Of a stretch of DNA of 64,000 bases, positions 7,626-63,784 are shown one piece after another; the stretch's first letter is position 1; each line of letters begins with the position of its first letter. Both the position numbers and the translations under genes were made by a program. Source of the DNA: Rhodospirillales bacterium (GTDB taxonomy: Bacteria > Pseudomonadota > Alphaproteobacteria > Rhodospirillales > UBA2165); contig JAJDXO010000024.1 of NCBI GenBank assembly GCA_022823235.1, positions 10,280 through 74,279 of the forward strand, written 5' to 3'. The notes below the pieces were generated by a model. That model did no database searches, had not been told where the DNA came from, and saw nothing but the letters and a program-made list of their open reading frames with translations.

Positions 7626-9377
7626 TTAGCCGCGCCGTTTGCCGCGTAACGCTTGGGTCGCCTCGGCGTCCAATGCCAGTGTTTCCGGATCGACGACGAC
7701 GCCGTAATTCCGTTCCGCGGAGTCGATGGAGACATAACCCTGCCGGACATCCTCGGCGACGATATCGGCCGGGCGGTCCAGCGGGTCGCCGAAACCGCCG
7801 CCGCCGCCGGACCTGAGCCGGAACGCCTCACCCTCCTTCAGCTGGGCGGTCAATACCTTGGCGTTGGGGAAATCCTCTTTCCATTTTCCATCCAGCTCGA
7901 GCGCAACCGTGTTGCCGGTGGCATCGCCGCCCCCGTCCAATCCCCAGGGGCGGCAGTTCATCCGTTCGATCTGCGTGTTGACGACGATATCGCTCCGGGC
8001 GCGAACGACGCGCTCGATGCCAAGCCCGCCCCGCTGCCGGCCGGCCCCGCCCGAGTCCCGGATCAGGCAGTTGTTTTCGATCAGCACCGGCGACTTGGTC
8101 TCGGCCTGCTCGATGGGGGCGTTGTGGGTGTCGCCGTCGTTGATGCACACCACCGCATTGGCGCCGTCCTCGGTGAGCTTGGCGCCCCAGCCGCCGCCCT
8201 GGGGGCCGAAGTTGCCGATGAAGAACTCCCGGGTGCGCGGATTTATGCCGTGGAACATCACCACCACCAGGTCGGCGTGATGCCCGGCGATCACCCTGTC
8301 CGGAATGGCGGGCTCCAACGCCTTGAAGACCGTGTCGACGACGGTCATCGGAAACGTCATCCACCAGCGCATGGGCGCCGGCCGGACGGCGCTCACCACC
8401 TTGCCCATGGGGACGATGGTCTTGAGGTTCCGGAAGGCGCCGTCGTTGATCGGATAGTCGGTCGGCGAGGCGATGCATTTGAAGGCAACCTGGGTGCAGG
8501 CGTGGCCGGTGGTCACCCCGGAATTGTAGAACCCGCGCACCTGTTCGGAGACGTCGGAGAGGTCGATGGTCATCTCGTCTCCCTCGACGACGATTTTCAC
8601 CCGGATGGGAATCCGGCGGCCGACATCGATCCCGTCGTCATCCATGAAGGATTCGGCCTCGTAGACGCCGTCCGGTATGGAGAGGGTGCGGCGCCGGGAC
8701 GCCTCCTCGGCGTGATCCATGATGGCGGCGATGCTGTCGCGGACGGCGTCAAACCCATAGCGCCGCACGAGTTCCAGGAAGCGGCGCTCGCCGGTCTTGA
8801 CGGCGGTTACCTGGGCCCGGAGGTCGCCCATGGCCCGGGAGGGAATGCGCACGTTCATGCGAATGATGTCTTCCAGGTCCGTGTTGACCGTGCCCTCGTT
8901 CTGATATTTGAGGATCGGCACCTGCAGGCCTTCGGAATAGATGTCCGTGGTCATCCCGCCGAGCGTGCCGCCGATGTCGATCCAGTGGGCCATGCAGCAG
9001 GCGAACCCCACCAGCCGGCCGTCGTCGAAGACCGGCAAGGTAAAGGTCATGTGGTTGAGATGACTGCCGGTGAGGTAGGCATCGTTGGTGACGTAGATGT
9101 CGCCCGGCTTGATGCCGTCCTCTCCGAAATGCCTGATCTTGGCTTTGACCGTCTCCGCCATCCCCCGGATGAACATGGGCAGGCCGATGCCGATGGAGAC
9201 GGTCTCCCCCTCGGGCGTGAAGATGCCGACGGTGAAATCCAGCGCCTCGTAGATGATGGTGTTGTAGGCGGTCCGCATGAGGTTGTTCTTCATTTCCTCG
9301 GTCACCGCCAGGACGCCGTTGCGGACGATCTCGGTGGTCACCGGATCGGTCCCCGGATATTTTTGCCAGTCGGTCAT
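7626..9377 (-). CDS. Hydantoinase B / 5-oxoprolinase family subunit (copy 1)
   Basis: DPVTTEIVRN, AYNTIIYEALDF, HLNH, HWIDIGG and DSGGAGRQRGG; 4-nt overlap with the A subunit. Confidence 0.92.
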   Translation of the reverse strand: MTDWQKYPGTDPVTTEIVRNGVLAVTEEMKNNLMRTAYNTIIYEALDFTVGIFTPEGETVSIGIGLPMFIRGMAETVKAKIRHFGEDGIKPGDIYVTNDAYLTGSHLNHMTFTLPVFDDGRLVGFACCMAHWIDIGGTLGGMTTDIYSEGLQVPILKYQNEGTVNTDLEDIIRMNVRIPSRAMGDLRAQVTAVKTGERRFLELVRRYGFDAVRDSIAAIMDHAEEASRRRTLSIPDGVYEAESFMDDDGIDVGRRIPIRVKIVVEGDEMTIDLSDVSEQVRGFYNSGVTTGHACTQVAFKCIASPTDYPINDGAFRNLKTIVPMGKVVSAVRPAPMRWWMTFPMTVVDTVFKALEPAIPDRVIAGHHADLVVVMFHGINPRTREFFIGNFGPQGGGWGAKLTEDGANAVVCINDGDTHNAPIEQAETKSPVLIENNCLIRDSGGAGRQRGGLGIERVVRARSDIVVNTQIERMNCRPWGLDGGGDATGNTVALELDGKWKEDFPNAKVLTAQLKEGEAFRLRSGGGGGFGDPLDRPADIVAEDVRQGYVSIDSAERNYGVVVDPETLALDAEATQALRGKRRG

Positions 9378-11482
9378 GAGGAATACCCCGCCACGGTGAT
9401 GATCAGGTTGAGATAGTCGTCCACCTCCAGGGTGTCGCCGGGAAACAGGACCGTGGTCGAGGCATGTTCCTCGACAACGGCGGGCCCCTCGATCCTGTGG
9501 CCCGGTTTCAAACGGGTGCGGTCGAAGGACGGCGTCTCCCGGTAGCCCGCGTTCCTGTCGAAGCAGATTTGGCGGCTGCCGGCCGCGGCATCGGAGGCGC
9601 CGCCGGCGCCCTCGTTCGGATAGGCCCGGAGCTCGGGAACCGGCATCTTCCCGACGATCGAGCTTCTCAGACTGACGATCTCCCCGGGCTCGGCCGGCGC
9701 GTTGGTGCCGTAGCGCTCGAGGTGAACCTTGTCGAATTCCCGTTTGATGCCGTCCCGGTCCTCGTCGGCAAACAGCTTATCATCAAGCGGAACCGTGACC
9801 GGGTGCTCCTGACCGACATAACGCATGTCCGCGGCGCGCGAGATCACGATTCCCTCCGGCTCGATGGAGGTCCTGCGGATCGCCTCCCGGCCCTGTTCGG
9901 CCATTTCGCCGTAGGTTTGCTCCATCACGCCGAATTCCATATCCGCCAGCCGGCCCGGCGCGGTGCGGACGTAGTCGTATCGAAGATCCGAGAACAGCAT
10001 GCCGAAGGCCGAGAAGTGCCCGGGCGACAGCGGGACGATGATGGTCTTCATGCCGATCTCGCGGGCGACCTGGGTGGCGTGCAAGGGCCCGGCGCCGCCA
10101 TAGGCCACCATGGAGAAGCTCGCCGCGTCCAGCCCCCGCTCGGTGGAGACGCCCTTGACCGCATAGGACATGGCCGTCGACGCAATCCTGAGAATACCTT
10201 CGGCGGCCTCCGTAACATCAAGGCCGAGCGGCTCGGCAACCTGCGTCGCAATGGCCCTTTCGGCGGCTTCCCGGTCCAGTTTCATCTCGCCGCCCAGGAA
10301 GCGGTCCGCGTCCAAACGGCCCAGCACAAGATTGGCGTCCGTCACCGTCGGCCGGTTTCCGCCGAGGCCGTAACAGGCCGGGCCGGGGTCCGCGCCGGCG
10401 CTTTCCGGCCCCACGTGAAGGGCGCCGGACTCGTCCAAAAGGGCGAGGCTGCCGCCGCCGGTGCCGACCTCGAAGATATCCATCATGGCGATCTGAACGG
10501 GCAATCCCTGCTCGTAACCGCCTATCAGCGTGTCGCCGATGGTCAGCACCTCGCCGTTATGGATCACGCCGGACTTGGCGGTGGTGCCCCCCATATCGAA
10601 GGAAATCGCGTCCTCAAGGCCGAGAATATGGCAAAGGGCGCGCGTTCCGATGACCCCCGCCGCCGGGCCCGACTCCAACATCCGGACGCATTCGGAACGG
10701 GCCTGCCCGGCTTCAAAAAGGCCGCCGGTGGACTGGACCACGAGGAAGGAGCCATCGAAGCCGCTTGCCCTGATGTGGCTGTCGATCCCGTCCACATAGC
10801 CGCGCACCGTGGGTCCGATGTAGGCATTGGCCGCCACGGTGGAGCAGCGTTCATACTCCCGGTATTCCTGGGACAGTTCGTGGGAGACCGTGACGAAGAC
10901 CCCCGGGAGTTCCTCTTCCAATATTTCGCGCGCCCGGATTTCGTGGACGGGATTTCGATAGGCGTGCAGAAACAGGACGGCGATGCTTTCGATGCCGTCG
11001 AGTCCCTTGGCGAGCCGCCGAAGCGCCGTCTCGTTCAGGGGCGTGCGGATCTCGCCCTCGGCGTACATGCGCTCCGGCACTTCGAAACGTTTGGCCCGCT
11101 CGATCAACGGCACGTGTTTCTTGAAATAAAGGTTATAGGCGTCCGGCCGGTTGACCCTGCCGATTTCATAGATGTCGCGGAACCCCTCGGTGATGACCAA
11201 CGCCGTATCGGCGCCGGTGCGCTCCAGGATCGTGTTGATGGCGATGGTGGAGCCGTGGAGGAACAGCGAGGCATCGGCGTATTCGAGGCCCGCCTTGGCG
11301 ACGCCGCCGCTGATGCCGTCGACGAGGGCGGCTGGGGTCGACAAGGTTTTTCCCCAGGAAAGCCTGCCCGTTCCTTCGTCGAACGCGGCGACATCGGTAA
11401 ACGTGCCGCCTATGTCTGTAGCAATTCGTACTCTGCGGCCTGATACGGTATTTTTTATATATTTATCAATATACTGTGGCAT
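9374..11482 (-). CDS. Hydantoinase A / 5-oxoprolinase family ATP-binding subunit (copy 1)
   Basis: DIGGTFTD, HGSTIAINT, ESGPAAG and DMGGTTAK. Start placed at ATG 11482 by comparison with copy 2. Confidence 0.92.
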   Translation of the reverse strand: MPQYIDKYIKNTVSGRRVRIATDIGGTFTDVAAFDEGTGRLSWGKTLSTPAALVDGISGGVAKAGLEYADASLFLHGSTIAINTILERTGADTALVITEGFRDIYEIGRVNRPDAYNLYFKKHVPLIERAKRFEVPERMYAEGEIRTPLNETALRRLAKGLDGIESIAVLFLHAYRNPVHEIRAREILEEELPGVFVTVSHELSQEYREYERCSTVAANAYIGPTVRGYVDGIDSHIRASGFDGSFLVVQSTGGLFEAGQARSECVRMLESGPAAGVIGTRALCHILGLEDAISFDMGGTTAKSGVIHNGEVLTIGDTLIGGYEQGLPVQIAMMDIFEVGTGGGSLALLDESGALHVGPESAGADPGPACYGLGGNRPTVTDANLVLGRLDADRFLGGEMKLDREAAERAIATQVAEPLGLDVTEAAEGILRIASTAMSYAVKGVSTERGLDAASFSMVAYGGAGPLHATQVAREIGMKTIIVPLSPGHFSAFGMLFSDLRYDYVRTAPGRLADMEFGVMEQTYGEMAEQGREAIRRTSIEPEGIVISRAADMRYVGQEHPVTVPLDDKLFADEDRDGIKREFDKVHLERYGTNAPAEPGEIVSLRSSIVGKMPVPELRAYPNEGAGGASDAAAGSRQICFDRNAGYRETPSFDRTRLKPGHRIEGPAVVEEHASTTVLFPGDTLEVDDYLNLIITVAGYSS

Positions 11483-11508
11483 TTCTCGGCCCGATAGATA
11501 ACTGGCAA

Positions 11509-11684
11509 AATCGGGCCAGCGTAAGCATGCTGAAAGAGGATTCACTCCAACGCCGGGTTTTGAATCGCCGACAGGCTGCCGGCGGGACCGCCGAGGAACG
11601 AACCCGCATCGAGCGCTCTCGACGCCGGCCACGACACTCCCTAGCATGGTAACAGCGAAATTGCGGAGCGTCACCGCGACCCGA
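11509..11684 (-). ncRNA. Conserved 176-bp non-coding leader, copy 1 (candidate promoter plus structured 5' UTR)
   Basis: 165/176 identical, ungapped, to 63609-63784; ends 26 nt upstream of the hydantoinase A start. The repeat is certain; the RNA function is inferred. Confidence 0.55.
11646..11674 (-). promoter_or_regulatory. Putative sigma70 promoter, copy 1
   Basis: -35 GTGACG (11674-11669), 17-nt spacer ending in TGt (extended -10), then -10 TACCAT (11651-11646). Confidence 0.5.
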
Positions 11685-11812: not shown

Positions 11813-12191
11813 TCACGTAATCAGAGTTTGGCGCCGGCGGCGGGCTACCGCCACCCGTCCACGCTCAACGGCGAACAGAGTTTTTTTGAAGCTCAGTCCC
11901 TCGCGCTTGAGAAACCGCCGGCGACGTCCCCCCATCCGGCCCGGCGAAACGCTCCCCATTGCCCGGTAGCGCTGTGACCACTTAACCACGCTCGAAACCG
12001 AAACACCAAAACGTGACGCGACTGCCCGGCAGCTCTCGCCCGCCGCGAACGCCAAAACAACGCGCTCTCGAAGATCATTCGAATAAGGTGGGGTCATGGG
12101 TGCTGGCCTTCTTGCCCAGCATCCATCTTGAATCACAAATCAAACCCTGAGGGAAACCCATATCGATTCCGAATAAACGTGAAACGCTCTA
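11813..12191 (-). mobile_element. IS630-family remnant: left end plus an internally deleted transposase orfA
   Basis: ORF 12097-11813 reads YSNDLRERVV...SVVKWSQRYRAMGSVSPGRMGG joined directly to FLKREGLSFKKT; A7C slippery motif near 11880; left end begins TAGAGCG at a CTAG site. Confidence 0.8.
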
Positions 12192-13136
12192 GATAGCCTC
12201 CCGGCCATAGTATAAATTGACGACATGCTCGGCATCGGCAAATAGAAGCCAGCGTTCGATGACGACACCTGTGGCGCTGGCAATGACGGCGGCGCCCGCC
12301 GCGAACAAGCCGAACATTCCCGGAAGCACAAGAATTAGGGCCAGCAGAAGGGCCGGAGTTATAAAACAAAGGGTAAGCACGTGCCGCCTCAGCCGTTCAG
12401 AGTGTCTTCGCGCAATGGCGTATCCCATTTCCTTGTTGAGGTAATTGGGAGCTGTGTGGGGCGGGTCGAGAGGCCTGACATTGCCGAACTGTTTCAGGCC
12501 GGTGGCCGACTCGACTGTGTGCTCGCGCGATCTTGTATTGAGGAATGCCCAATACTTTAATTTCAATGCCAGCGCGGCAAGCAGCGCCGCAATGGCGATC
12601 ATGACGGCCCACGCCTGCCAAATACCGAAAGCTAACATTAGAAAGTTGAGGAGAACCGCACCGGTCGCCAGAGCGAGGAATAAAAATACCGGCGGCACCA
12701 GACCATTGTGCCACTGCGGGATGGTCTTCAAGGATGCATAGATCATCGCCGTGCTATAGACCGTCGCGACAGAGAAGAACGCCGTCAGCCATGCCATAAG
12801 GTTCCACACCGAAGACGTCGTCTCAAAATATATCCACCCGATCGCGAGCACGCCTGACGGCACATAAGTGAAAACGGCGAGCACCCCCTCCCGGGAGAGC
12901 CACGAGGACCGCCATTGAGAGAAGGCGCGCCAGGAGCGCTCCGGATGACCTAGGTGAAAAGTTGAGGAAAGGAGGCCGCCGGAGATCAGCCCGAGGGCAA
13001 TCGCAAAGCCCGCAAGTCCAAACCAGCGCTCGGCGGGAAGCAGACCAAGCGCCCCCAAAATCGCCAGCAAAAACAACAGTCCGTATCCGGCCCCTGAGGA
13101 GGTGGTGAAAAAAATGACGGAATATGCCGGGTGCAT
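12189..13136 (-). CDS. soeC: Sulfite:quinone oxidoreductase membrane anchor (DmsC/NrfD family)
   Basis: MHPAYSVIFFT, HLGHPERSWRAFSQWRSSWLSRE and ERWLLF; context xsc-pta-soeAB. Confidence 0.85.
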   Translation of the reverse strand: MHPAYSVIFFTTSSGAGYGLLFLLAILGALGLLPAERWFGLAGFAIALGLISGGLLSSTFHLGHPERSWRAFSQWRSSWLSREGVLAVFTYVPSGVLAIGWIYFETTSSVWNLMAWLTAFFSVATVYSTAMIYASLKTIPQWHNGLVPPVFLFLALATGAVLLNFLMLAFGIWQAWAVMIAIAALLAALALKLKYWAFLNTRSREHTVESATGLKQFGNVRPLDPPHTAPNYLNKEMGYAIARRHSERLRRHVLTLCFITPALLLALILVLPGMFGLFAAGAAVIASATGVVIERWLLFADAEHVVNLYYGREAI

Positions 13137-13150
13137 TGTCGGCGCGTCCC

Positions 13151-13909
13151 TCAATCGGACAACATTCGGTCGGCCCACCCGAAAAACTTCTCGACGGCCG
13201 TAGGAGCGTGAACGGCATCAATTTGCGCCGGCCTCTCTCCGGCGGGTTTTGCATGGGAGCGGTCAACCTCCCTCGTTCGCGGCGGCAGATATTTGTTGAC
13301 CGGTCTGTACCCAAGCTCGGGCAGCAGGTCGTATCCTTCGCGTTCCTTGACGACTTTTGAAACGATGCTGTCCGGATCGCCCAAATCACCGAAATGCCTC
13401 GCGCCGGTTGGGCAGGCCATTACGCAGGCCGGCACTCGATCAGCTTCCGGCAGGTTGTCGTTATATATGCGATCCACGCAGAGGGTGCACTTTTTCATGA
13501 CGCCGTGGCTCTGATCGTATTCCCGGGCGCCATAGGGGCACGCCCACGAACAGAGTTTACAGCCGATGCAGGTGTCGGGATTGACCAGCACGATTCCATC
13601 TTCGGACCGCTTGTACGAGGCCCCTGTCGGACAGACCGTTACGCAGTCCGGTTCCTCACAGTGCAGACAGGAGCGTGGAAAATGGACTGTCCGGCCGCCG
13701 GTTCCGTCACCGGCTTCAAAGCTGTGAATCCGGTTCAACCATGGACCGTGGGGGTCGTTGCCATAGGCGTCGATATCGGAAAGCGGCGCCGAGTATCCGC
13801 CGGTATTCCATTCCTTGCAGCTTACGGCACAGGCGTGACACCCGACGCAAATATCGAGATCTATGACCAGCCCCAACTTCTTGCCGGTTGCCGGCGGAAG
13901 CGTTGTCAT
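13151..13909 (-). CDS. soeB: Sulfite dehydrogenase 4Fe-4S subunit
   Basis: Four Cys clusters: CVGCHACAVSC, CLHCEEPDCVTVC, CIGCKLCSWAC and KCTLC...C. Confidence 0.88.
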   Translation of the reverse strand: MTTLPPATGKKLGLVIDLDICVGCHACAVSCKEWNTGGYSAPLSDIDAYGNDPHGPWLNRIHSFEAGDGTGGRTVHFPRSCLHCEEPDCVTVCPTGASYKRSEDGIVLVNPDTCIGCKLCSWACPYGAREYDQSHGVMKKCTLCVDRIYNDNLPEADRVPACVMACPTGARHFGDLGDPDSIVSKVVKEREGYDLLPELGYRPVNKYLPPRTREVDRSHAKPAGERPAQIDAVHAPTAVEKFFGWADRMLSD

Positions 13910-16782: not shown

Positions 16783-16794
16783 TGTTATTCCCGG

Positions 16795-17826
16795 CTAGGC
16801 TGGTGCGGCTGAGTTGATTTTTTTTTGGTCCGTGACCTGGGCTTGAACGCTCGTTACCGCAATCATCCGGTAAATGTCCTCCGCACTGCAGCCGCGGGAT
16901 AAGTCGTTCGCGGGCTTCGCCAGTCCTTGTAGTATCGGTCCAATCGCCTTTGCCTTGCCGATCCGCTCGGCGATCTTGTAGCCGATGTTCCCGGAATTTA
17001 GGTCTGGGAAGATCATGACGTTTGCGTTGCCGGCGACAGCGGATTCCGGGGCTTTTAGGTTTCCAATCTCGGGCACGAACGAAGCGTCGAACTGAATGCC
17101 ACCCTCGACGGGAATGTCAGGCCGAAGCTCCTTGAGCCGCCTCGCCGCATTGTCGACCTTGTCGACGAGTTGGTGACCCGCGCTTTGACGTGTCGAGAAC
17201 GACAACATGGCCAGTTTGGGGTCCAGGTTCAGGAGCGTATTGGCGCTGTCTGCTGTCGCTGAAGCAATTTGAACAAGCTGCTCTTCGTCCGGGTCCACGA
17301 TCAATGCGCAATCCGCGAAGAGTATTGACCCCTTGAAATCGTGGAATTCTTCTTCCAACAGCATGATGAAAAAGCTGGACACCAGGGAGTAACGATTGTC
17401 GATTCCAATTACCTGAAAGGCTGTTCGGACCACGTCCGCGGTTGTGCGTGTGGCCCCGCCAAGGGATCCTGCCGCATCACCTTCCCGGACCATGAGATCG
17501 GCAAATATCAAAGGGTCCGAAACCGCCGACTCGGCTGACTTTTCATCGACGCCTTTGTGTTTTCTCAATTGGTAGAAGGTGTCCGCATAACCGTGTCTAG
17601 CCGGTGACTTGTCCGGTTCAATCACATTTATGGTGGAAACGTCACCGCCGAACTCTTTGAGGGTAGGCCGAATGTTGTCCGGGTCTCCGAGAATTGTAAC
17701 AACGGCGAGGCCATCGCGGGCGGCACGGAGGCCGCCTTCGATCACACGCTCGTCTCCTCCCTCCGCCAGAACGATGTGTTTAGGATTGGAACGGGCCCGG
17801 CTGATTATGGAATCGAACTGGCTCAT
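16795..17826 (-). CDS. pta: Phosphate acetyltransferase
   Basis: IVLAEGGDERV, LAMLSFST, IQFDAS, FPDLNSGNIGYK and GPILQG. Confidence 0.92.
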   Translation of the reverse strand: MSQFDSIISRARSNPKHIVLAEGGDERVIEGGLRAARDGLAVVTILGDPDNIRPTLKEFGGDVSTINVIEPDKSPARHGYADTFYQLRKHKGVDEKSAESAVSDPLIFADLMVREGDAAGSLGGATRTTADVVRTAFQVIGIDNRYSLVSSFFIMLLEEEFHDFKGSILFADCALIVDPDEEQLVQIASATADSANTLLNLDPKLAMLSFSTRQSAGHQLVDKVDNAARRLKELRPDIPVEGGIQFDASFVPEIGNLKAPESAVAGNANVMIFPDLNSGNIGYKIAERIGKAKAIGPILQGLAKPANDLSRGCSAEDIYRMIAVTSVQAQVTDQKKINSAAPA

Positions 17827-17900
17827 TCGACTGGCCGGAATGCCTCTATCGGGAGTCCGGGGGACCGGAGGGACACCACCTGGGACGTCCCTTCCCGCCC

Positions 17901-19691
17901 TCAGCCGGAATGTTCCCCAACCTGCTGGGGGCGCATATCGCCGGCATCTATTCCCGCAACGGGAACCGGCGCCTTCATTGCGTCCCGGCGGAACGGCTCG
18001 CCAAGCTCCTGGTTGAGTACAACCTCGACGAAGGTCGTGACACCGCTTGCCTGGGCCTCGCAGCCTTCCCTTATCGCGGCGGTAAGCTCGTCTTGCGTTC
18101 TGGCCTGAACACCTCTCAGTCCGCAACCTTCGGCGATTTTCGCATAGCTGAGATTGGGGTCCAGTTCCGTGCCGACAAAATTATTGTCGTACCATAGGAT
18201 GGTGTTTCTTTTTTCGGCGCCCCACTGATAATTGCGGAAGATGACCATCGTGATGGCCGGCCAGTCTTCACGGCCGCAAGATGTCATTTCGTTCATCGAA
18301 ATGCCGAACGCACCGTCTCCGGCAAAGCCGACGACCGGCGTATCCGGGCAGCCGATTTTCGCGCCGAGGATTGACGGGAAGCCATAACCGCACGGGCCAA
18401 ACAGCCCCGGAGCAAGGTACTTCCGGCCTTGCTCAAATGTCGGGTAGGCATTGCCAATAGCGCAATTGTTCCCGATGTCGGTTGAAATGATCGCATCCCC
18501 GGGCAATCCGGCTTGAATTGCTCGCCAAGCCTTGCGGGGTGACATCAAATCCGCATCCCGTTCGCGTGCTTCTTCGTTCCAGACAGTACCCGGGTCGTCC
18601 TCTTCGTGATCCAGACTGCTCAATGTCTGCAGCCAAGCTGATTTTGTCTGGTGGATCAGCGCCTTTCGGTCTTCTCGTCCTTTGTCTCCCGCCGAGTCAG
18701 GCAGTCGGTCAAGAATCTGCCGGGCAACCAGCTTGGCGTCCCCGCTGATTCCGACATCTACCTTCTTCGTCAAGCCAATACGATCCGGATTGATGTCGAC
18801 TTGGATGATAGCGGCGTCCTGTGGCCAGTAGTCGATACCATAGCCGGGAAGCGTGGAAAACGGATTCAGGCGCGTCCCGAGCGCGAGGACGACATCGGCC
18901 TTTGAAATGAGTTCCATGGCCGCCTTGGATCCGTTGTATCCCAGCGGCCCTACGGCCAGAGGGTGGCTGCCAGGAAAACTATCGTTGTGTTGATAGCCGC
19001 TGCAGACGGGAGCATCGAGCCGTTCGGCGAGCGCCCGGCACTCCGGAATGGCTTCTCCGATAACAACACCCGCCCCAGACAAAATTACGGGAAACTCCGA
19101 GGCGGCCAGGAGATCTGCCGCTTTGGCGATCGATTCGGCGCCGCCACCGGACCTCTCAAGGCGCACAATTTGAGGCATCTCAATATCGATGACCTGGGTC
19201 CAAAAATCCCTCGGTACATTTATTTGCGCGGGCGCAGACCCCCGCCACGCTTTCTCGATGACCCGGTTCAAAACCTCGGCCATTCTGGACGGGTCGCGGA
19301 CTTCTTCCTGGTAGCAGACCATGTCGCGGAAGAGAGCCATCTGCTCCACTTCCTGGAAACCGCCTTGCCCCATGGTCTTGTTCGCGGCCTGCGGCGTTAC
19401 CAGCAGCATCGGCGTATGGTTCCAATAAGCTGTCTTGATCGGCGTCACGAAGTTTGTGATTCCGGGACCGTTCTGCGCGATGGCCATGGCCATCTTTCCG
19501 GTGGATCGGGTATATCCGTCGGCGATGAATCCGGCGTTGGCTTCGTGGGCACAATCCCAAAATTTGATCCCGGCGGCGGGGAATAAATCCGAAATAGGCA
19601 TCATGGCGGAACCGATAATGCCGAAGGCATGTTCGATGCCGTGGTTTTGAAGCACTTTTACGAATGCTTCTTCGGTCGTCATCTTAGTCAT
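17901..19691 (-). CDS. xsc: Sulfoacetaldehyde acetyltransferase (ThDP-dependent)
   Basis: MTTEEAFVKVL, QNGPGITN, GDGAFGISMNE and NYQWGAEKRN are typical Xsc signatures. Confidence 0.95.
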   Translation of the reverse strand: MTKMTTEEAFVKVLQNHGIEHAFGIIGSAMMPISDLFPAAGIKFWDCAHEANAGFIADGYTRSTGKMAMAIAQNGPGITNFVTPIKTAYWNHTPMLLVTPQAANKTMGQGGFQEVEQMALFRDMVCYQEEVRDPSRMAEVLNRVIEKAWRGSAPAQINVPRDFWTQVIDIEMPQIVRLERSGGGAESIAKAADLLAASEFPVILSGAGVVIGEAIPECRALAERLDAPVCSGYQHNDSFPGSHPLAVGPLGYNGSKAAMELISKADVVLALGTRLNPFSTLPGYGIDYWPQDAAIIQVDINPDRIGLTKKVDVGISGDAKLVARQILDRLPDSAGDKGREDRKALIHQTKSAWLQTLSSLDHEEDDPGTVWNEEARERDADLMSPRKAWRAIQAGLPGDAIISTDIGNNCAIGNAYPTFEQGRKYLAPGLFGPCGYGFPSILGAKIGCPDTPVVGFAGDGAFGISMNEMTSCGREDWPAITMVIFRNYQWGAEKRNTILWYDNNFVGTELDPNLSYAKIAEGCGLRGVQARTQDELTAAIREGCEAQASGVTTFVEVVLNQELGEPFRRDAMKAPVPVAGIDAGDMRPQQVGEHSG

Positions 19692-19750
19692 GATTCTGGT
19701 CTCTCTGGTTGTTCCTCGATGTGTTGTACAGATTCGCCATCGGTACAAAT

Positions 19751-20644
19751 TCAACTCGCGACCGCATTAAGGTTTGCGCCCCTAGACCGGATTACCGCCG
19801 TTCCGATTTGACTTGGAACGGCCACAACCTCGACACCCGCCTGCTCCAACGCGGTTTTCTTGGATTTGTATGTCCCTTTGTCACCGGTGACGATCGCGCC
19901 GGCATGGCCCATCTTTTTGTCCTTCGGAGCGGTCCGTCCGGCGACAAACGCCACAACGGGTTTGGACATGGTGGCTGCGTACTCGGCGGCTTCCTCTTCG
20001 GCTGTGCCGCCAATTTCGCCGCACAGAACGACCGCCTCGGTCCGAGGGTCCCGGTCCAAAATTTCGAGCGCATCCCGGCTGGACGTGCCGATGACGGAAT
20101 CTCCGCCAACGCCGTAAAAAACGGACTGACCGATCCCATGCTGAACCAATTGCAGGCTGACGAGGGTTCCCAGGCTTCCCGACCGGGAGACGATACCGAC
20201 ATTACCGGGCTGAAAAACATTCTCATTGAAGGCAGGCATAATGCCGACGAAACATTCGCCAGGAACGACGATACCCGCTGTGTTCGGGCCAACTACGCGC
20301 GTTCCGTTTGTTTTGGCGGCGGCCATTATTTCCAAGACATCCTGGATGGGAATGTGTTCCGTGAGGCAAACCAGCATTTTGGCGCCGGATTCGATGGCGT
20401 CGATGGCGGCCGCTTTGGCTCCAGCTGGAGGGATAAACATCACCGCAATATCGAAACAGGATTCCCGCAAAGCCTGTTGAGCGGAACCGTATACCGGAAG
20501 CCCGAGGTGGGAGGTGCCCGCTTTCTTGGGATTGACCCCGCCTACCACGTTCGAACCGCATGCAATCATCTGCTCGGTCCAGAACGTACCCTGACGCCCG
20601 GTCATGCCTTGAACGAGGATTTTGTGTGATGAAGTTGGGATCAC
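19751..20644 (-). CDS. Succinyl-CoA-synthetase alpha-like subunit, probably sulfoacetate-CoA ligase (ADP-forming)
   Basis: VQGMTGRQG, VGPNTAG and MGHAGA (phospho-His); located between sauS and xsc. Confidence 0.8.
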   Translation of the reverse strand: MIPTSSHKILVQGMTGRQGTFWTEQMIACGSNVVGGVNPKKAGTSHLGLPVYGSAQQALRESCFDIAVMFIPPAGAKAAAIDAIESGAKMLVCLTEHIPIQDVLEIMAAAKTNGTRVVGPNTAGIVVPGECFVGIMPAFNENVFQPGNVGIVSRSGSLGTLVSLQLVQHGIGQSVFYGVGGDSVIGTSSRDALEILDRDPRTEAVVLCGEIGGTAEEEAAEYAATMSKPVVAFVAGRTAPKDKKMGHAGAIVTGDKGTYKSKKTALEQAGVEVVAVPSQIGTAVIRSRGANLNAVAS

Positions 20645-59733: not shown

Positions 59734-61497
59734 TTATTCCGCCGCCGTTTGGGCCGCCGCGCGGCGCTTCGATCTCAGTTCCTCGGTCGCCGGCCCATCG
59801 ACCTCGCTGGTTGCGTCATCGATGACCACGCCGTAATCGTCCCGGGCCGCCTCGGCCGACACATACCCTTCCTTGACATCGTCGGCGACAAGCCCGGCCT
59901 CCCGCTCCAAGGGGTTTCCCCACCCGCCGCCGCCGCCGGTGCGGACAATGAGCTGCGAGTTCTTGGGCAACAAGTTGCGCGGCGTGTCCGCCACGGAGAA
60001 ATCGTCCTCTCCCGGCGTTCTGTACAGAAATTCACCGACCTTGCCGGGCTTGCCCTCCCACAGCCCCCACGCCGGGCAAATCTCTCCCCGCTTCGGGGGC
60101 TCGCAAATCCACGTCCCGTCGACCAGCACCTCGACGAGGGTCTGCATGCCGAGGCCGCCCCGGTACCGCCCGGCCCCGCCGGAATCGGTCCGCAGCGTCC
60201 TCTCTTCGATGATCACGGGGCATTTCAGTTCAATGCCCTCGATCGTCGCATTGCGGACGTCCCCCTGGCAGACGCTGACGGTTGCGGACTCGCCGTTCTC
60301 GTGCGGCCTCCCGCCCCAGCCGCCGCCCTCGATGCTTTGGACGATGAACCTCTTGCCGGTCTTCGGGTGGATACCGGTGAAAACCACCGGCCCGCCGAGC
60401 AGGCCGAAGTGGGCCGCCGGGATCGTGTCCTTCATCCCGGGGGCGAGCGCGCGGATGACGGTATCGACGACGGTCGGGACGATGACGCTCCACATGCACA
60501 TGGGCGCCGGATAGACCGCCATCATGATATTGCCCTCGGGGATGACGACATCGACGGCGCGGAAAGAACCTTCGTTGACCGGTTCGGTCGGCGCCGTCAG
60601 AGCCTTGTAGGCCACCCGCGCGCCGGCCAGGGTTCTGGAATTGATCGCGGCGCGGCGGGCATCGGCGCACCCGGACAGATCGATGGTCATGTCGCTGCCC
60701 GCGACCGTGACCTTGGCGTGAATGCGGATCGGCTCGCCGATCTCGATCCCGTCGTCGGTCAGAAACGCCTCGGCTTCGTACACCCCATCGGCGATGCCGG
60801 TCACCACGTTCCGGCATTTCTGTTCGGTCTCGTCGAAAATCCGATCCAGCGCCGCGTGAATGATGCCGGGGCCGAATTTCTCGAACAGTTCCTCCAGACG
60901 GCGTGTGGCCAAGCGGCAGGCCGCGATCTGCGAACGCATGTCGCCAAGGGAGGATTCCGGAAACCGGATATTGTCGTGAATAAGCTTATAGAGCGTTTCG
61001 TTCCGCTCGCCCGCCTCGTAGATTTTCAGTTGATCGAACTGGAGTCCTTCCATCCAGGGATCGGCAACATCCGGACCGCCGCCGAAGCCGGTGCTCATGC
61101 CGCCGACGTCGATCCAGTGGGCCCGCACCATGGAGAAGAAGATCAACTCACCCTCAAAAAAGAACGGGGTGTAGATGACGATATTGTTGAGATGCTGCCC
61201 GGCGACCCGCTGGTGGTTGGTGATGATCACGTCGCCCGGTTGAAAGCCGTCGGCGCCGATCTTTTCCATGCCGTCCTCGATCACCACCCCGAGGTCGGCG
61301 ACGAAATGCGACACCCCGCCGACATTCTGCGACACCAGTTCGCCGTTGGGTTTGACCACGGCGGTGCAGAAATCACGGACCTCGTAAATCATCATGTTGT
61401 AAGAGGTCCGCTGGAGATCCGCCGCCATTTCGTTGGCGATGGCCGGAAAGGCGTTGCGGACCACTTCGAGAGTCACGGGATCGAGTGTTGTGCTCAT
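59734..61497 (-). CDS. Hydantoinase B / 5-oxoprolinase family subunit (copy 2)
   Basis: DPVTLEVVRN, HLNN, HWIDVGG and DSGGAGRYRGG. Confidence 0.92.
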   Translation of the reverse strand: MSTTLDPVTLEVVRNAFPAIANEMAADLQRTSYNMMIYEVRDFCTAVVKPNGELVSQNVGGVSHFVADLGVVIEDGMEKIGADGFQPGDVIITNHQRVAGQHLNNIVIYTPFFFEGELIFFSMVRAHWIDVGGMSTGFGGGPDVADPWMEGLQFDQLKIYEAGERNETLYKLIHDNIRFPESSLGDMRSQIAACRLATRRLEELFEKFGPGIIHAALDRIFDETEQKCRNVVTGIADGVYEAEAFLTDDGIEIGEPIRIHAKVTVAGSDMTIDLSGCADARRAAINSRTLAGARVAYKALTAPTEPVNEGSFRAVDVVIPEGNIMMAVYPAPMCMWSVIVPTVVDTVIRALAPGMKDTIPAAHFGLLGGPVVFTGIHPKTGKRFIVQSIEGGGWGGRPHENGESATVSVCQGDVRNATIEGIELKCPVIIEERTLRTDSGGAGRYRGGLGMQTLVEVLVDGTWICEPPKRGEICPAWGLWEGKPGKVGEFLYRTPGEDDFSVADTPRNLLPKNSQLIVRTGGGGGWGNPLEREAGLVADDVKEGYVSAEAARDDYGVVIDDATSEVDGPATEELRSKRRAAAQTAAE

Positions 61498-63581
61498 GCG
61501 TTCAGCCCCACGGAAATAATCATCTCGCCCGTCTCGGCGACGCGGCAGCGGTCGCCGGCGAACATCACCGTCGTCGATGCGTACTCCTGGACCAGCGCGG
61601 GGCCCTCGAATTCAAATCCGGGACCGAGCGCGGTCCGTTCATGGACCGGGCACGCCGCCGGCGCCGTTGGATCGTCAAGGTACACCTGGCGCCGCTTGGG
61701 TTCCATACCACTTCCGTCGGCGCCGATCTGCGGCAGGGCCAACGTCGGACGGCGGCCCATGGCGACAAGGCGGAGATTGACCACCTCGACGGGTTCGTCC
61801 GCGGCGTGATGGGCATAGCGGAGCTCATGGAGATCGTCGTAGGCCTTGCGGATCGCCGGGACGTCGCCCGCCTTGATCAGCTCCAGCGAGACCGGGACCG
61901 ACAGCGTGAACTCCTGGCCGACATAGCGCAGATCCAGCTTGACCTGGAACTCCATATTGTCTCCCAGCTTCAGTTCGGCCTTCGCCTGTCCGACCATTTC
62001 GTCGTGGATTCTCTCCAGTACCGAAAAATCCACCTGTTCGAGGCCGGCGAGGCAGGTCTGGATGAAGTCCTGGCGCTCGTCCGCCATGAGCATCCCCAGC
62101 GCCGAAAAGTGCGCGGGGAAGCGCGGAATGATCACCGTCGGGATATGAAGCTCGCGGGCAATGGCGACGGCATGAAGCGGACCGGCGCCGCCGGAGGCGA
62201 ACATGGCGAAATCCCGGGGGTCGTAGCCCTTCTCGACCGAAACTTCCCGGACCGCGAGGGACATTTTGGTGATGGCGATCCGAATAATCGCCTGGGCGGC
62301 TTCGTACACATCCATGCCGAGGGGTCCGGCGACTTTCTCCTTGGTGCCGGCGATCGCGCCCTCGAGGTCGAGGGGCATTTCGCCGCCCAGAAAATCCGAT
62401 GCGCCGACGCGGCCGAGGATCACGTTGGCGTCGGTGATGGTCGGTTCCCGGCCGCCGCCCGCGTAGCAGATGGGCCCCGGATCGGCGCCCGAGCTTTGCG
62501 GGCCCACCTTGAGCGCGCCGACATCGTCGATCCAGGCAATGCTGCCGCCCCCGGCGCCCACCTCGACCACATCGACAACCGGCGCCATGACCGGGTCGCC
62601 GCTTGCGTAGCCGCCGACGTAATAGCCCTCGGCGGTCGTAGCCTGCCGGTCCCGGATCAGGCTGGCTTTTGCAGTGGTGCCGCCCATGTCGAATGAGATG
62701 ACGTCGTCATAGCCGAGCGCGCCGCCCACCTCGGCGGACGCGATGATGCCGCCGACCGGACCGGATTCCATCATGTTGACCGGTTTCTTGACCGCCACAT
62801 CCGGCGCCATGACGCCGCCGTTGGACTGCATAATGGACAAATCGCCCTTGAATCCGATGTCGTGCAGCCGTTGCTCGAGCCCGTGAACGTAGCCGCTCAT
62901 CCGGGGGCCGATATAGGCGTTCACCACCGTCGTCGAGGTCCGTTCGAACTCCCTGTATTCACGCAGGATCTCGTGGGAGAGCGAGACGTAGATATCCGGC
63001 AGTTTTTGCGCCAGCACCTCTCCCGCCAGCTGCTCGTGGACGGGGTTCGCATAGGCATGAAGAAAGCAAACGGCAACGGCCTCGATATCCAGGGATTTCA
63101 GCCGATCGCAAATGGGGTCCAACTGGGCCGGGTCCATTGGGTCCCGGATTTCGCCGCCCGCCAGAATGCGTTCCGCGACTTCGAAGGTCAGGCTGCGGGG
63201 AACCAGCGGCCGATGCCGATGAAAGAGCAGATTGTAGGATTCCGGGCGGTTGCCGCGGCCGATGGTATAAACATCGCGCGTGCCCTTGGTGACGAGGAGG
63301 GCCGTCTTGGCGCCCTTGCGCTCGATCAGCGTGTTGATCGCCTGGGTGGTCCCGTGGATGACGTCGCCGGCCCCGCCGACTTCGAGACCGCTCTTGTCGA
63401 TGCAGTCGAGGATGCCCTGGGCCAGGTCGTGGGGGGTTGTCGGGCTCTTTGCCTGATAGAAGCCCTGCGACGCCACGTCAAAGGCCATCAAGTCGGTGAA
63501 GGTGCCGCCGATGTCAGCTGCAAGGCGTATTCCACCGCCGGAAACTGATTTTTTTGTATGTTTTTCAATATCTTGTTTCAT
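61494..63581 (-). CDS. Hydantoinase A / 5-oxoprolinase family subunit (copy 2)
   Basis: DIGGTFTD, HGTTQAIN, ESGPVGG and DMGGTTAK. Confidence 0.92.
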   Translation of the reverse strand: MKQDIEKHTKKSVSGGGIRLAADIGGTFTDLMAFDVASQGFYQAKSPTTPHDLAQGILDCIDKSGLEVGGAGDVIHGTTQAINTLIERKGAKTALLVTKGTRDVYTIGRGNRPESYNLLFHRHRPLVPRSLTFEVAERILAGGEIRDPMDPAQLDPICDRLKSLDIEAVAVCFLHAYANPVHEQLAGEVLAQKLPDIYVSLSHEILREYREFERTSTTVVNAYIGPRMSGYVHGLEQRLHDIGFKGDLSIMQSNGGVMAPDVAVKKPVNMMESGPVGGIIASAEVGGALGYDDVISFDMGGTTAKASLIRDRQATTAEGYYVGGYASGDPVMAPVVDVVEVGAGGGSIAWIDDVGALKVGPQSSGADPGPICYAGGGREPTITDANVILGRVGASDFLGGEMPLDLEGAIAGTKEKVAGPLGMDVYEAAQAIIRIAITKMSLAVREVSVEKGYDPRDFAMFASGGAGPLHAVAIARELHIPTVIIPRFPAHFSALGMLMADERQDFIQTCLAGLEQVDFSVLERIHDEMVGQAKAELKLGDNMEFQVKLDLRYVGQEFTLSVPVSLELIKAGDVPAIRKAYDDLHELRYAHHAADEPVEVVNLRLVAMGRRPTLALPQIGADGSGMEPKRRQVYLDDPTAPAACPVHERTALGPGFEFEGPALVQEYASTTVMFAGDRCRVAETGEMIISVGLNA

Positions 63582-63608
63582 GATCGAAGCTCGACAGACT
63601 ACTGATGG

Positions 63609-63784
63609 AATCGGGTCAGCGTAAGCATACTGTAAGAGGATTCACTCCAACGCCGGGTTTTGAATCGCCGGCAGGCTGCCGGCGCGACCGCCGAGGAACG
63701 AACCCGCATCGAGCGCTCTCAACGCCGGCCACGATACTCCTTGGCATCGTAACAGCGAAATCGCGGAGCGTCACCGCGACCCGA
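63609..63784 (-). ncRNA. Conserved 176-bp non-coding leader, copy 2
   Basis: 165/176 identical to 11509-11684; fills the gap between the cyclase stop (63788) and 27 nt before the hydantoinase A ATG. Confidence 0.55.
63746..63774 (-). promoter_or_regulatory. Putative sigma70 promoter, copy 2
   Basis: GTGACG-N17-TACGAT with TG extension; the -10 differs from copy 1 only at a weakly constrained position. Confidence 0.5.

What the first reader, a model, noticed from the sequence alone, without database searches (positions are those of the whole stretch)
63609..63784. Leader substitutions preserve stems; alternative pairing suggests a switch
Seen, reading the minus-strand RNA. Stem A GCGUCGAG/CUCGAUGC (11606-11625): C-G becomes U-G in copy 2. 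Stem B CGCCGGCA/UGUCGGCG (11566-11584): G-U becomes G-C. Stem C CAGC/GCUG (11517-11532): C-G becomes U-G. All three changes inside these stems keep pairing. An invariant GAUUCA/UGAAUC helix encloses AACCCG, which is complementary to an invariant upstream CGGGUU, giving a possible pseudoknot or competing fold. Both GANTC sites (CcrM targets in Alphaproteobacteria) are conserved. Both downstream Shine-Dalgarno sequences are weak and there is no U-tract, so any control would more likely be translational. Two sequences give little statistical power.
Basis: partly seen in the sequence, partly recalled or inferred. Interest (0 to 1): 0.7.

Follow-up and report, generated by a model that had tools for sequence, protein, structure and literature searches.

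The report
Portable 5′ cassette of hydantoinase genes
The conserved "leader" is not a demonstrable riboswitch; it is one copy of a portable cassette (promoter region, leader and first codons) that sponge-symbiont bacteria of several phyla swap between hydantoinase genes and also leave as cut-off copies beside mobile and defence genes, by a mechanism still unknown.

Summary
The two copies are real: minus strand, 63620-63784 and 11520-11684, 155/165 identical. The hyuA/hyuB proteins behind them are only 46%/40% identical. The three in-stem substitutions do keep pairing, but that is 3 of 10 differences (chance about 0.125).

This identity does not reflect conservation of a riboswitch.
- In a sister genome the orthologous genes are 92-94% identical, yet they carry an unalignable upstream part (32-39%), which is again 94-97% identical between that genome's own two copies.
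- The element is a three-part mosaic. S1 is the upstream part plus a near-invariant 25-nt core, TGAATCC(T/G)CTTACAGTATGCTTACG. S2 is a variable stretch, an AT-rich tract and the first 17-27 codons. The gene body joins exactly after GGCGGCACC (the G-G-T of DxGGT).
- Nineteen distinct modules were found, in sponge-metagenome contigs and in MAGs labelled Alphaproteobacteria/Rhodospirillales, Binatia and Thermodesulfobacteriota. They sit on hyuA genes only 33-63% identical.
- Ten loci hold copies cut exactly after GGCACC, mostly beside defence or mobile genes.
- Stems A and B mostly persist. The GAUUCA/UGAAUC helix, the proposed switch and the 5′ GANTC site do not. There is no Rfam match.

Best reading: a mobile promoter-leader-N-terminus cassette. 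How it moves and what the core does remain unknown.

The parts
63645..63784 (-). Copy 2, S1 left part (version A). Conserved block starts at GGTGACG (~63775). Candidate -35 GTGACG is at 63769-63774 and candidate -10 TACGAT at 63746-63751. Contains stems A and B.
   Evidence: 94% identical to copy 1. Homology to contigs of four other sponge metagenomes stops at 63774-63776 with different flanks. 72-75% identical to L010/L012. The promoter hexamers are read from the sequence; the 9/12 scan did not call them.
63706..63725 (-). Stem A, GCGUUGAG-AGCG-CUCGAUGC
   Evidence: 100% paired in 4 sequences; 4 pairs vary on one side only. Some metagenome variants disrupt it.
63666..63684 (-). Stem B, CGCCGGCA-GCC-UGCCGGCG
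   Evidence: Inner 6 bp are kept. There is one C-G to U-A double change in L010. The outer 2 bp are lost in L010/L012.
63620..63644 (-). Near-invariant core TGAATCCTCTTACAGTATGCTTACG. It holds a 6-5-6 direct repeat (T/G)CTTAC-N5-GCTTAC, the 3′ GANTC, and an AUG that opens a possible short uORF (MLT...).
   Evidence: Present in 19 distinct modules from MAGs labelled with three phyla. All five positions left free in the search pattern are invariant in the 13 Binatia-type modules. uORF.
63501..63619 (-). Copy 2, S2: variable post-core stretch, AT-rich tract, ATG at 63579-63581, first 27 codons. Ends with GGCGGCACC (63501-63509), which is the junction with the gene body.
   Evidence: Identity to copy 1 falls from 93% in the core to 60-70% here. 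It is 80-85% identical to the S2 of the non-orthologous gene in L008. Ortholog identity jumps from 66% (S2b) to 94% at the junction.
61494..63581 (-). hyuA-2 (hydantoinase/oxoprolinase A subunit, 695 aa) with a 16-aa AT-rich N-terminal extension
   Evidence: Homologues carry PF05378/PF01968/PF19278. Of the 120 best hits, only the 94%-identical P0001 has the extension.
59734..61497 (-). hyuB-2 (Hydantoinase_B)
   Evidence: Pfam PF02538, E = 8e-136
11545..11684 (-). Copy 1, S1 left part (stem A 11606-11625, stem B 11566-11584)
11520..11544 (-). Copy 1 core, TGAATCCTCTTTCAGCATGCTTACG
11402..11519 (-). Copy 1, S2: hairpin GGCCCGAU...AUCGGGCC (11488-11517), ATG at 11480-11482, ends with GGCGGCACG (11402-11410)
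9374..11482 (-). hyuA-1 (702 aa)
   Evidence: 46% identical to HyuA-2. The ortholog P0121/L008 is 93% identical.
7626..9377 (-). hyuB-1 (Hydantoinase_B)
   Evidence: Pfam PF02538, E = 6e-153
11813..12136 (-). IS630-like transposase HTH fragment, about 130 nt upstream of the copy 1 cassette
   Evidence: Pfam HTH_23/HTH_28/HTH_Tnp_1

Best explanation
The stretch is the upstream two-thirds of a portable 5′ cassette for hydantoinase-A (hyuA) genes.

The cassette has two exchangeable parts.
- S1 in this genome is a ~130-nt lineage-specific part. It probably comprises a promoter (-35 GTGACG, -10 TAnnnT) and a hairpin-rich 5′ UTR. It is followed by a near-invariant 25-nt core with a 6-5-6 direct repeat.
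- S2 is a fast-changing spacer of tightly held length, then an AT-rich tract, the start codon and the first 17-27 codons.
- The cassette joins the gene body exactly after GGCGGCACC, the G-G-T codons of the DxGGT ATP-binding motif.

Shown:
- S1, S2 and the gene bodies have independent histories.
- S1 is copied or homogenised within a genome and replaced between closely related genomes.
- The same core and junction occur on very different hyuA genes in MAGs labelled with three phyla, most of them from sponge metagenomes.
- Copies cut off exactly at the junction lie in front of unrelated DNA.

Inferred:
- The cassette supplies transcription and translation start signals to whatever lies behind the junction.
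- The core is a sequence-specific protein recognition site, most likely an operator for a direct-repeat-binding regulator. Its distance to the start region is held at 92 ± 1 nt.
- Stems A and B are lineage-specific UTR structure, not a ligand-sensing aptamer.
- The 94% identity of the two window copies comes from recent intragenomic copying or conversion of S1, not from selection on a switch.
- The enzyme that makes the precise junction is not identified.
For: Mosaic structure.
- Within a genome, S1 is 94% identical (w1-w2) and 94-97% identical (L001-L008), while the gene bodies are 58%.
- Between genomes, the orthologous gene bodies are 92-94% identical but S1 is only 32-39% and S2 37-71%.
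- The S2 of w2 is 80-85% identical to the S2 of the non-orthologous L008 gene.
- Identity steps up right at GGCACC.

Spread.
- The genome scan gave 6 loci, in MAGs labelled Rhodospirillales, Alphaproteobacteria, Binatia (two) and Thermodesulfobacteriota.
- The metagenome scan gave 19 further true loci.
- The window's source is a sponge metagenome, and the L024 locus is held by sponge-metagenome runs.
- The attached HyuA proteins are only 33-63% identical to one another.

Sharp junction.
- Homology stops exactly after GGCACC in L009, L013, L016, L018, L019/L033, L024, L032 and L012; L029 holds a decayed copy (GGCGACAC). Different DNA follows in each.
- L016 and L024 share a 99%-identical upstream region and the module, but differ completely after GGCACC. 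Both alleles co-occur in one sample.

Other points.
- The left edge of S1 is sharp at 63774-63776 in several upstream contexts and coincides with a -35-like hexamer.
- Core-to-ATG spacing is 92 nt in 10 of 13 Binatia-type modules, and core-to-junction spacing is 142-144 nt in 18 of 19 modules, despite unalignable spacer sequence.
- Thirteen modules show no conserved RNA fold around the core.
- The next gene after a truncated copy is mostly co-oriented with it.
- The concept has precedent: 'putative mobile promoters' shared by unrelated genes and across phyla, mechanism unknown (PMC3575422).
Against: - No transcription data could be obtained. The promoter, the UTR and the direction of any regulation are therefore inferred.
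- The candidate promoter scores only 8/12 and was not called by the scan.
- No regulator has been linked to the core.
- Invariance of the spacer and flanks of the direct repeat is more than an ordinary operator needs.
- A regulatory cassette does not by itself explain why ten independent copies end at the very same base. That calls for a site-specific cut-and-join activity, which was not found.
- Ascertainment: every homologue was found through exact matches to the core, so diverged cores are invisible and the core's invariance is partly built in.
Confidence: 0.45

Rival explanations
1. Attachment site or integration hot spot. Genomic islands integrate by site-specific recombination at GGCGGCACC in the 5′ end of hyuA and bring their own cassette, so the gene stays expressed (as SXT does in prfC, or islands in dusA). 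Truncated copies would be the displaced older 5′ ends. The core direct repeat and the AT-rich IHF-like site would be arm-type and bending sites at a fixed distance from the crossover.
For: - The break point is exact in ten loci.
- Neighbours are defence or mobile genes: Mrr-NACHT, HEPN_Swt1 + NYN, NucS-like, DUF2513, IS3, IS256 and DUF3800.
- L024 has a full truncated module, then a 2.3-kb insert, then a partial module (last ~80 nt) plus an intact hyuA.
- The same island segment lies downstream of one module (L032) and upstream of another (L013).
- Core-to-junction spacing is fixed at 142-144 nt even in the alphaproteobacterial modules, where the start codon has moved 30 nt.
- WATCAANNNNTTR-like TATCAAnTAGTTA occurs in most Binatia-type modules, and GTCGG...CCGAC dyad symmetry surrounds the junction (read).
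Against: - No recombinase gene lies next to any of about 19 junctions.
- The only integrases found (L009, L018/L021) are 2.9-5.6 kb away and abut a different repeat family.
- The DNA following the junction shares no sequence among islands.
- L012 is followed by housekeeping genes, dinB and aspS.
- The apparent excision joint in run X29 was a mapping artefact.
- There is no hit in viral contigs.
Confidence: 0.25
2. One reading: a structured 5′ leader RNA (riboswitch-like) that controls translation of hyuA through alternative pairing.
For: - Stems A and B persist in L010/L012, with two double changes.
- Seven of seven one-sided changes give G-U on the sense strand.
- The conserved block starts at a -35-like element, so the stems would be transcribed.
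- The SD is weak and there is no terminator.
Against: - Orthologous genes carry an unalignable S1.
- The proposed switch helices are broken in homologues and in natural variants.
- Variants carry disruptive changes in stem A and the long-range helix.
- Folding z-scores are -1.0 and -1.4.
- No consensus structure emerges from 13 modules that share the core.
- No Rfam match.
- Copies occur detached from hyuA.
Confidence: 0.1
3. The cassette is the terminal segment of a larger transposable element, whose end is cleaved exactly after GGCACC and joined to target DNA. Junctions with hyuA would be a preferred target.
For: - L009, L029, L016 and L024 share the same upstream gene (uspA-like, 83-99% identical) plus the module, but have different downstream DNA. 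That is what one element inserted at different targets would look like.
- L019 and L033 are fused into a ferritin-like gene fragment.
Against: - There is no terminal inverted repeat, no target duplication, and no 5′-TG...CA-3′ terminus.
- No transposase is consistently linked.
- Upstream DNA differs among most loci.
- In-frame joining to six divergent hyuA lineages is hard to obtain by transposition.
Confidence: 0.1
4. Leader-peptide control: the invariant AUG in the core opens a short uORF (MLT...) whose translation governs hyuA expression.
For: - An AUG sits at the same core position in 18 of 19 modules.
- The peptides are 9-26 aa long (apart from L008, whose frame runs on).
- Three alphaproteobacterial copies encode MLT(L/P)(A/T)RF(H/Q)Q-stop, with synonymous TTC/TTT and CAT/CAC changes.
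Against: - There is no SD within range.
- The start is ACG in L001.
- The stop is lost in w1 and L008.
- The lengths are what chance gives in this base composition.
- The frame relative to hyuA is not kept.
Confidence: 0.07

Closest known systems
Putative mobile promoters (Matus-Garcia, Nijveen & van Passel 2012; PMC3575422)
   Same: Highly similar (>=80%, >=50 nt) upstream regions in front of genes that are not close paralogues. They occur within a genome and occasionally across phyla. Most have no Rfam match and no known vehicle of movement.
   Different: Here the unit extends into the coding region and ends at one exact base inside a conserved protein motif. It is a two-part mosaic around a near-invariant 25-nt core. 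It also occurs as truncated copies beside defence and mobile genes.
Integrating elements that target the 5′ end of a gene and supply a new 5′ end (SXT/R391 in prfC; DusA-associated islands). Recalled from my own knowledge, not tested here.
   Same: There is a duplicated 5′ gene fragment at an island border, the gene is kept functional, and the cargo is variable.
   Different: No adjacent integrase was found. No repeated core is seen on the island side. The junction partners are unrelated in sequence.
Integron platform (Pc promoter + attI followed by cassettes). Recalled from my own knowledge.
   Same: A fixed promoter-bearing sequence is followed, from one exact point, by variable and mostly co-oriented genes.
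   Different: No IntI-like gene was seen in the ORFs inspected, and no attC search was run. Only 2 of 9 junctions begin GTYAGGC. The platform carries a start codon and 17 codons of a metabolic gene.
Riboswitches and other cis-regulatory leader RNAs (Rfam)
   Same: A long conserved leader with hairpins in front of a metabolic operon, with a weak SD.
   Different: There is no family match. The architecture is not conserved between orthologues or across the module family. The conserved part is primary sequence without structure.
PhoP/PmrA-type boxes of OmpR-family regulators (hexamer-N5-hexamer direct repeats). Recalled from my own knowledge.
   Same: GCTTAC-N5-GCTTAC has the same 6-5-6, 11-bp-period layout, and its spacing to the start region is constrained.
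   Different: The sequence differs from known boxes. The spacer and flanks are invariant too. No regulator has been identified and binding is untested.
Promoter-carrying MITEs (Correia, ERIC, REPIN)
   Same: A small (~180 nt) dispersed unit with hairpins that can carry promoters and overlap ORFs.
   Different: There are no terminal inverted repeats and no target-site duplication. Copy number per genome is low.

Membership tests
Riboswitch / known cis-regulatory RNA family | Match to a curated covariance model | tested here: not met
   No Rfam hit at gathering score in the window or in 16 related loci. Only chance-level hits (E > 2) appear in the leader.
Riboswitch / known cis-regulatory RNA family | Secondary structure conserved across homologues, with covariation | tested here: inconclusive
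   Four version-A sequences give 94% paired cells, 2 pairs changed on both sides, and 18/500 shuffles as good. Thirteen Binatia-type modules give no consensus fold. Natural variants both keep and break the stems.
Riboswitch / known cis-regulatory RNA family | The aptamer stays with orthologous genes | tested here: not met
   Orthologues at 92-94% identity carry S1 at only 32-39% identity.
CcrM (GANTC)-controlled regulatory region | GANTC sites conserved in homologues of GANTC-methylating lineages | tested here: not met
   The 5′ GATTC is replaced in L010/L012 and in most metagenome variants. The 3′ GAATC is part of a core that is also invariant in MAGs labelled Binatia and Thermodesulfobacteriota. 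Methylation itself is not testable here.
Putative mobile promoter | >=80% identity over >=50 nt upstream of genes whose coding parts are not similarly conserved | tested here: met
   S1 is 94% identical against 58% for the gene body within the genome, and occurs in MAGs labelled with three phyla.
Putative mobile promoter | Promoter activity | not testable with these tools
   Only an 8/12 hexamer pair at the left edge of conservation. No RNA data.
Tyrosine-integrase attachment site | Integrase gene at or near one junction | tested here: not met
   tblastn with the L009 integrases hits only L009 and L018/L021, 2.9-5.6 kb from the module and next to another repeat. Only 2-10 kb per locus could be seen.
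Tyrosine-integrase attachment site | Direct repeats of the core at both ends of the inserted DNA | tested here: inconclusive
   L024 has a full module and an ~80-nt partial module flanking 2.3 kb. The other loci are too short to reach a second end.
Tyrosine-integrase attachment site | Excision or empty-site products | tested here: inconclusive
   Two alleles differing from GGCACC onward co-occur in run X22. The 'joint' in X29 was an artefact of a divergent spacer.
MITE / transposon end | Terminal inverted repeats and target-site duplication | tested here: not met
   No TIR between GACAGAG... and ...GGCGGCACC, and no TSD at the junctions. The doubled GACAGAGC belongs to a separate 125-nt MITE.
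Integron | IntI integrase and attC sites bounding cassettes | not tested
   No dedicated search was run. No IntI-like ORF was noticed in the ORFs inspected.

The most novel reading that the evidence does not exclude
A previously undescribed site-specific system for exchanging the 5′ ends of genes. A ~180-nt platform carries transcription signals, an invariant 25-nt recognition box, a start codon and 17 codons. It is cut and joined exactly after the G-G-T codons of the DxGGT (ASKHA phosphate-1) motif. Divergent hyuA genes, or unrelated cargo such as defence genes, can then be placed behind it. It is shared horizontally among sponge symbionts assigned to three phyla. Functionally this would be an integron-like expression and insertion platform that lacks an integron integrase and uses an unknown recombinase or nuclease.
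Probability: 0.15. Interest if true: 0.85.

Novelty: new variant of a known kind. Interest (0 to 1): 0.6.

Why it matters
If the cassette is what it appears to be, regulatory-plus-N-terminal gene ends can move as units between distantly related bacteria of one habitat and dock at a conserved protein-motif codon block. That would make promoter transfer a concrete, testable case with exact junctions. It would also mark a recombination hot spot at which defence and mobile genes accumulate in sponge symbionts. More generally, the case warns that near-identity of two leaders within one genome, even with pair-preserving substitutions, can result from copying rather than from selection on an RNA switch.

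Tried and rejected
- Rfam at gathering and at E <= 10 on the window and on 16 loci: nothing for the module.
- Plasmid collection search with the leader, blastn: no match.
- Exact look-up of the window's own HyuA proteins: not on record.
- RNA evidence: no RNA run holds the leader. The two runs that hold the operon are contigs at depth 2 without direction, and are uninformative.
- A third protein search with the 40-aa N-terminus found no candidate, and that search was wasted.
- Sigma-54 and ECF readings of the core were rejected on spacing and lack of conservation (read).
- tRNA as integrase target: none in six loci.
- Integrase linkage: only two loci, and there associated with another repeat.
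- Idea that the DNA upstream of GACAGAG is a decayed older N-terminal fragment: alignment scores equal shuffles, z from -1.3 to 1.3.
- DGR-like adenine-specific variation in the hypervariable spacer: not seen.
- 'Excision joint' in run X29: explained by a divergent spacer.
- Viral contigs: no match to the core.
- Conserved hairpin after the core in Binatia-type modules: not supported.

Full report
**1. The observation**

On the minus strand there are two copies of a conserved non-coding block.
- Copy 2 is at 63620-63784 and copy 1 at 11520-11684. They show 10 differences in 165 nt.
- Each precedes a hyuA-hyuB pair (61494-63581 / 59734-61497 and 9374-11482 / 7626-9377). Pfam gives Hydantoinase_B, E = 1e-136 to 1e-153.
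- The proteins are only 46% (A subunit) and 40% (B subunit) identical, and the DNA about 63%.
The three substitutions inside them are transitions that keep G-U or G-C pairs.

This is true but weak.
- Three of 10 differences fall in stems that occupy 24% of the block.
- 3/3 pair-keeping transitions has p = 0.125.
- Folding energies are ordinary: z = -1.0 and -1.4 on the sense strand, +0.1 on the antisense strand.
- The MFE folds of the two copies agree only on stems A and B.
- No Rfam family matches. No terminator is present.

**2. Relatives**

Most HyuA homologues of 65-82% identity lack the AT-rich N-terminal extension. Their loci lack the leader (L002 has a divergent LysR gene instead; L007).

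The two near-orthologues do carry a related leader: P0001/L001 (94% identical to HyuA-2) and P0121/L006 = L008 (93% identical to HyuA-1). A pattern taken from the shared part found:
- 6 loci in species-representative genomes, in MAGs labelled Rhodospirillales, Alphaproteobacteria, Binatia (two) and Thermodesulfobacteriota;
- 21 loci in JGI metagenomes, two of them chance hits.

The window's own sequence is held by sponge metagenomes. So is locus L024.

**3. Anatomy of the family**

There are 19 distinct modules. Each has these parts.
- **A left part of variable kind.** It is ~35 nt starting at GACAGAG in the 13 'Binatia-type' modules. It is ~130 nt in alphaproteobacterial version A (the window, L010, L012). 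In version B (L001, L008) the two copies share ~350 nt upstream of the core.
- **A near-invariant core,** TGAATCC(T/G)CTTACAGTATGCTTACG. It contains the direct repeat (T/G)CTTAC-N5-GCTTAC. The five positions left free in the search pattern are invariant in all 13 Binatia-type modules.
- **A highly variable spacer.**
- **An AT-rich tract,** often TATCAAnTAGTTA.
- **The start codon and 17 codons** (27 in the alphaproteobacterial modules), ending in GGCGGCACC. These are the G-G-T codons of DxGGT.

Core-to-ATG spacing is 92 nt in 10 of 13 Binatia-type modules. Core-to-junction spacing is 142-144 nt in 18 of 19 modules. Yet BLAST cannot align the spacers of the two types.

**4. The parts have separate histories**

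Identity by segment, left part of S1 (S1-left) / core / S2a / S2b / gene body:

| Pair | S1-left | core | S2a | S2b | gene |
|---|---|---|---|---|---|
| w1-w2 (same genome) | 94 | 93 | 60 | 70 | 58% |
| L001-L008 (same genome) | 94 | 96 | 37 | 63 | 58% |
| w1-L008 (orthologues) | 32 | 85 | 63 | 71 | 92% |
| w2-L001 (orthologues) | 39 | 89 | 37 | 66 | 94% |

- L001-L008 are a further 97% identical over -350 to -141.
- w2-L008 are not orthologues, yet S2 is 80-85% identical between them.
- In 20-30-nt windows, ortholog identity rises from 0.65-0.85 to 0.87-0.97 right at GGCACC.

S1 is therefore copied or homogenised within a genome and replaced between sister genomes. S2 reassorts separately. 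The gene bodies are inherited vertically. The particular stems A and B are dispensable for these very genes.

**5. Cut-off copies**

In L009, L013, L016 (= L026/L030/L034), L018 (= L021), L019 (= L022), L033, L024 (= L031), L032 and the alphaproteobacterial L012, homology ends exactly after GGCACC and unrelated DNA follows. L029 holds a decayed copy.
- L016 and L024 share a 99%-identical upstream region and the module. Their 9 differences all fall between the core and the last 43 nt of the module. They diverge completely after GGCACC.
- Both alleles are present in one sponge sample.
- L009, L029 and L016 share an upstream uspA-like gene.
- L019 and L033 share the downstream DNA, an in-frame ferritin-like fragment followed by a MerR gene. 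They differ upstream and in the spacer.
- L024 has a truncated full module, 2.3 kb of insert, then the last ~80 nt of a module joined to an intact hyuA.
- A 1-kb segment lies 1.7 kb downstream of the L032 module and 4.1 kb upstream of the L013 module.
- Neighbours are largely defence or mobile genes: Mrr-NACHT STAND, HEPN_Swt1 + NYN, NucS-like, DUF2513, DUF3800, IS3 (ALIL pseudoknot) and IS256.
- In the window, an IS630-like fragment lies upstream of copy 1. In L001 there are a group II intron and DDE transposases.

**6. RNA structure, tested**

In the four version-A sequences:
- Stem A is 100% paired, with 4 pairs varying on one side.
- Stem B is 87.5% paired, with one C-G to U-A change; the outer two pairs are lost.
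It has one C-G to G-C change.
- Seven of seven one-sided changes in stems A, B and this helix give G-U rather than A-C on the sense strand (about 0.008). This hints at folding of that strand.
- The whole-structure controls are weak: 18/500 shuffles do as well.

Contigs from four further sponge metagenomes add version-A variants.
- Some keep the stems: 63708 U>C, 63721 U>C, 63681 C>U, 63671 C>U.
- Others break them: 63708 U>G, 63710 G>A and 63718 G>C in stem A; 63703, 63699 and 63640 in the long-range helix.
- Most alter GAUUCA (63662-63666).
- Their homology ends at 63774-63776, against different upstream DNA. This is exactly where a -35-like GTGACG begins. It is followed after 17 nt by TAnnnT in all four aligned sequences.
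- A promoter at the left edge with a ~158-nt UTR is my inference; the scan's 9/12 threshold is not reached.

RNAalifold on the 13 Binatia-type modules finds only a 4-bp GC hairpin and no covariation. The conserved element of the family is therefore primary sequence plus spacing, not a fold.

**7. What it most likely is**

I favour a mobile promoter-leader-N-terminus cassette (confidence 0.45). This is an instance of the 'putative mobile promoters' described by Matus-Garcia, Nijveen and van Passel, but with unusually sharp anatomy.
- I read the core as a protein recognition site. The 6-5-6 direct repeat and the ±1-nt spacing to the start region fit an operator for a direct-repeat-binding regulator.
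- This is inferred, and the invariance of the spacer and flanks exceeds what an operator needs.
- The unexplained fact is the identical break point in ten loci.

The main rival (0.25) is an attachment site of integrating islands that carry a replacement 5′ end.
- It explains the break point, the defence cargo, the L024 arrangement and the fixed core-to-junction distance.
- Against it, no recombinase is adjacent to any junction. The only integrases seen belong with another repeat family.

Lesser rivals:
- a transposon end (0.1);
- a leader peptide starting at the core's AUG (0.07).

These readings are not mutually exclusive.

**8. Limits**
- All homologues were found by exact matches to the core, so its invariance is partly ascertained and diverged relatives are unseen.
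- Loci are 2-14 kb long, so far ends of islands could not be reached.
- Several assemblies are low-coverage long-read MAGs.
- No transcript data exist.

Noticed in passing
L009 1401-1530 and 5432-5500; L021 (positions relative to the core) +5534..+5618 and, inverted, -4930..-5059; L020 -4295..-4428; L016 +1967..+2019: A second dispersed repeat family of ~90-150 nt (GAGGTGGTCCCACTTTGTAGGACAGGTAGGCGGCGGAG...CATGCCGCCAGGGTCCTGTT). On the opposite strand it reads like the 5′ end of a gene. One copy directly abuts two tandem P4-like tyrosine integrase genes, so it may be their attachment site.
   Followed up: partly
L016 (oriented) -168..-36 relative to the core; empty site in L024: A 125-nt MITE with perfect 25-nt terminal inverted repeats (GTAACCGTTCGGGCTTGCCGTGGAG) and an 8-bp duplication, GACAGAGC. 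It is inserted at the left edge of the module. L024 and several other loci show a doubled or tripled GACAGAG(C) without the MITE.
   Followed up: partly
L019 and L033, directly after GGCACC: The truncated module is fused in frame to a ferritin/bacterioferritin-like C-terminal fragment (...RRIIEDILKTEKEHGDDLE), giving a 91-aa ORF. A MerR-family gene follows.
   Followed up: no
window 63620-63634 / 11520-11534, and all modules: The invariant core contains an AUG that opens a short ORF (MLT..., 9-26 aa). Three alphaproteobacterial copies end MLT(L/P)(A/T)RF(H/Q)Q-stop. There is no SD. The start is ACG in L001 and the stop is lost in copy 1 and L008.
   Followed up: partly
window 63540-63581 and 11441-11482: The first ~14 codons of both hyuA genes are strikingly AT-rich in a 61% GC window (MKQDIEKHTKKSVS / MPQYIDKYIKNTVS). 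In Binatia-type modules the homologous AT-rich tract is untranslated and lies just 5′ of the ATG. There it often matches the IHF consensus WATCAANNNNTTR.
   Followed up: partly
window 11813-12136 (-): An IS630-like transposase HTH fragment (HTH_23/HTH_28), about 130 nt upstream of the copy 1 cassette.
   Followed up: no
window 12189-19754 (-): A DmsABC-like molybdopterin oxidoreductase (DmsC, 4Fe-4S and Mo subunits), followed by phosphate acetyltransferase and a TPP enzyme. The latter pair is reminiscent of sulfoacetaldehyde (taurine) catabolism, which is known from sponge symbionts.
   Followed up: no
L001 62-1870 (-), 1744-2571 and 6680-7414: A group II intron (Rfam D1-D4, 87 bits, with an RVT_1 ORF) and DDE_Tnp_1 transposases bracket the hyuAB pair of the sister genome. 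hyuB there is shortened to 494 aa.
   Followed up: no
L014 72-200: A core-like GAATCCGCTTTCAGTACGCTTACG lies ~60 nt upstream of a VapB-type antitoxin gene (MGRTNIVIDESLVRKA) in an unrelated metagenome. The nhmmer E-value is 2e-4. It is probably a chance pattern hit, but this was not excluded.
   Followed up: no
L024 oriented +674..+1956 (original 8540-9822): The 2.3-kb insert between the truncated module and hyuA is also present, at ~95% identity, in contigs of two 'viral metagenome' runs (X28, X30), without the module.
   Followed up: no
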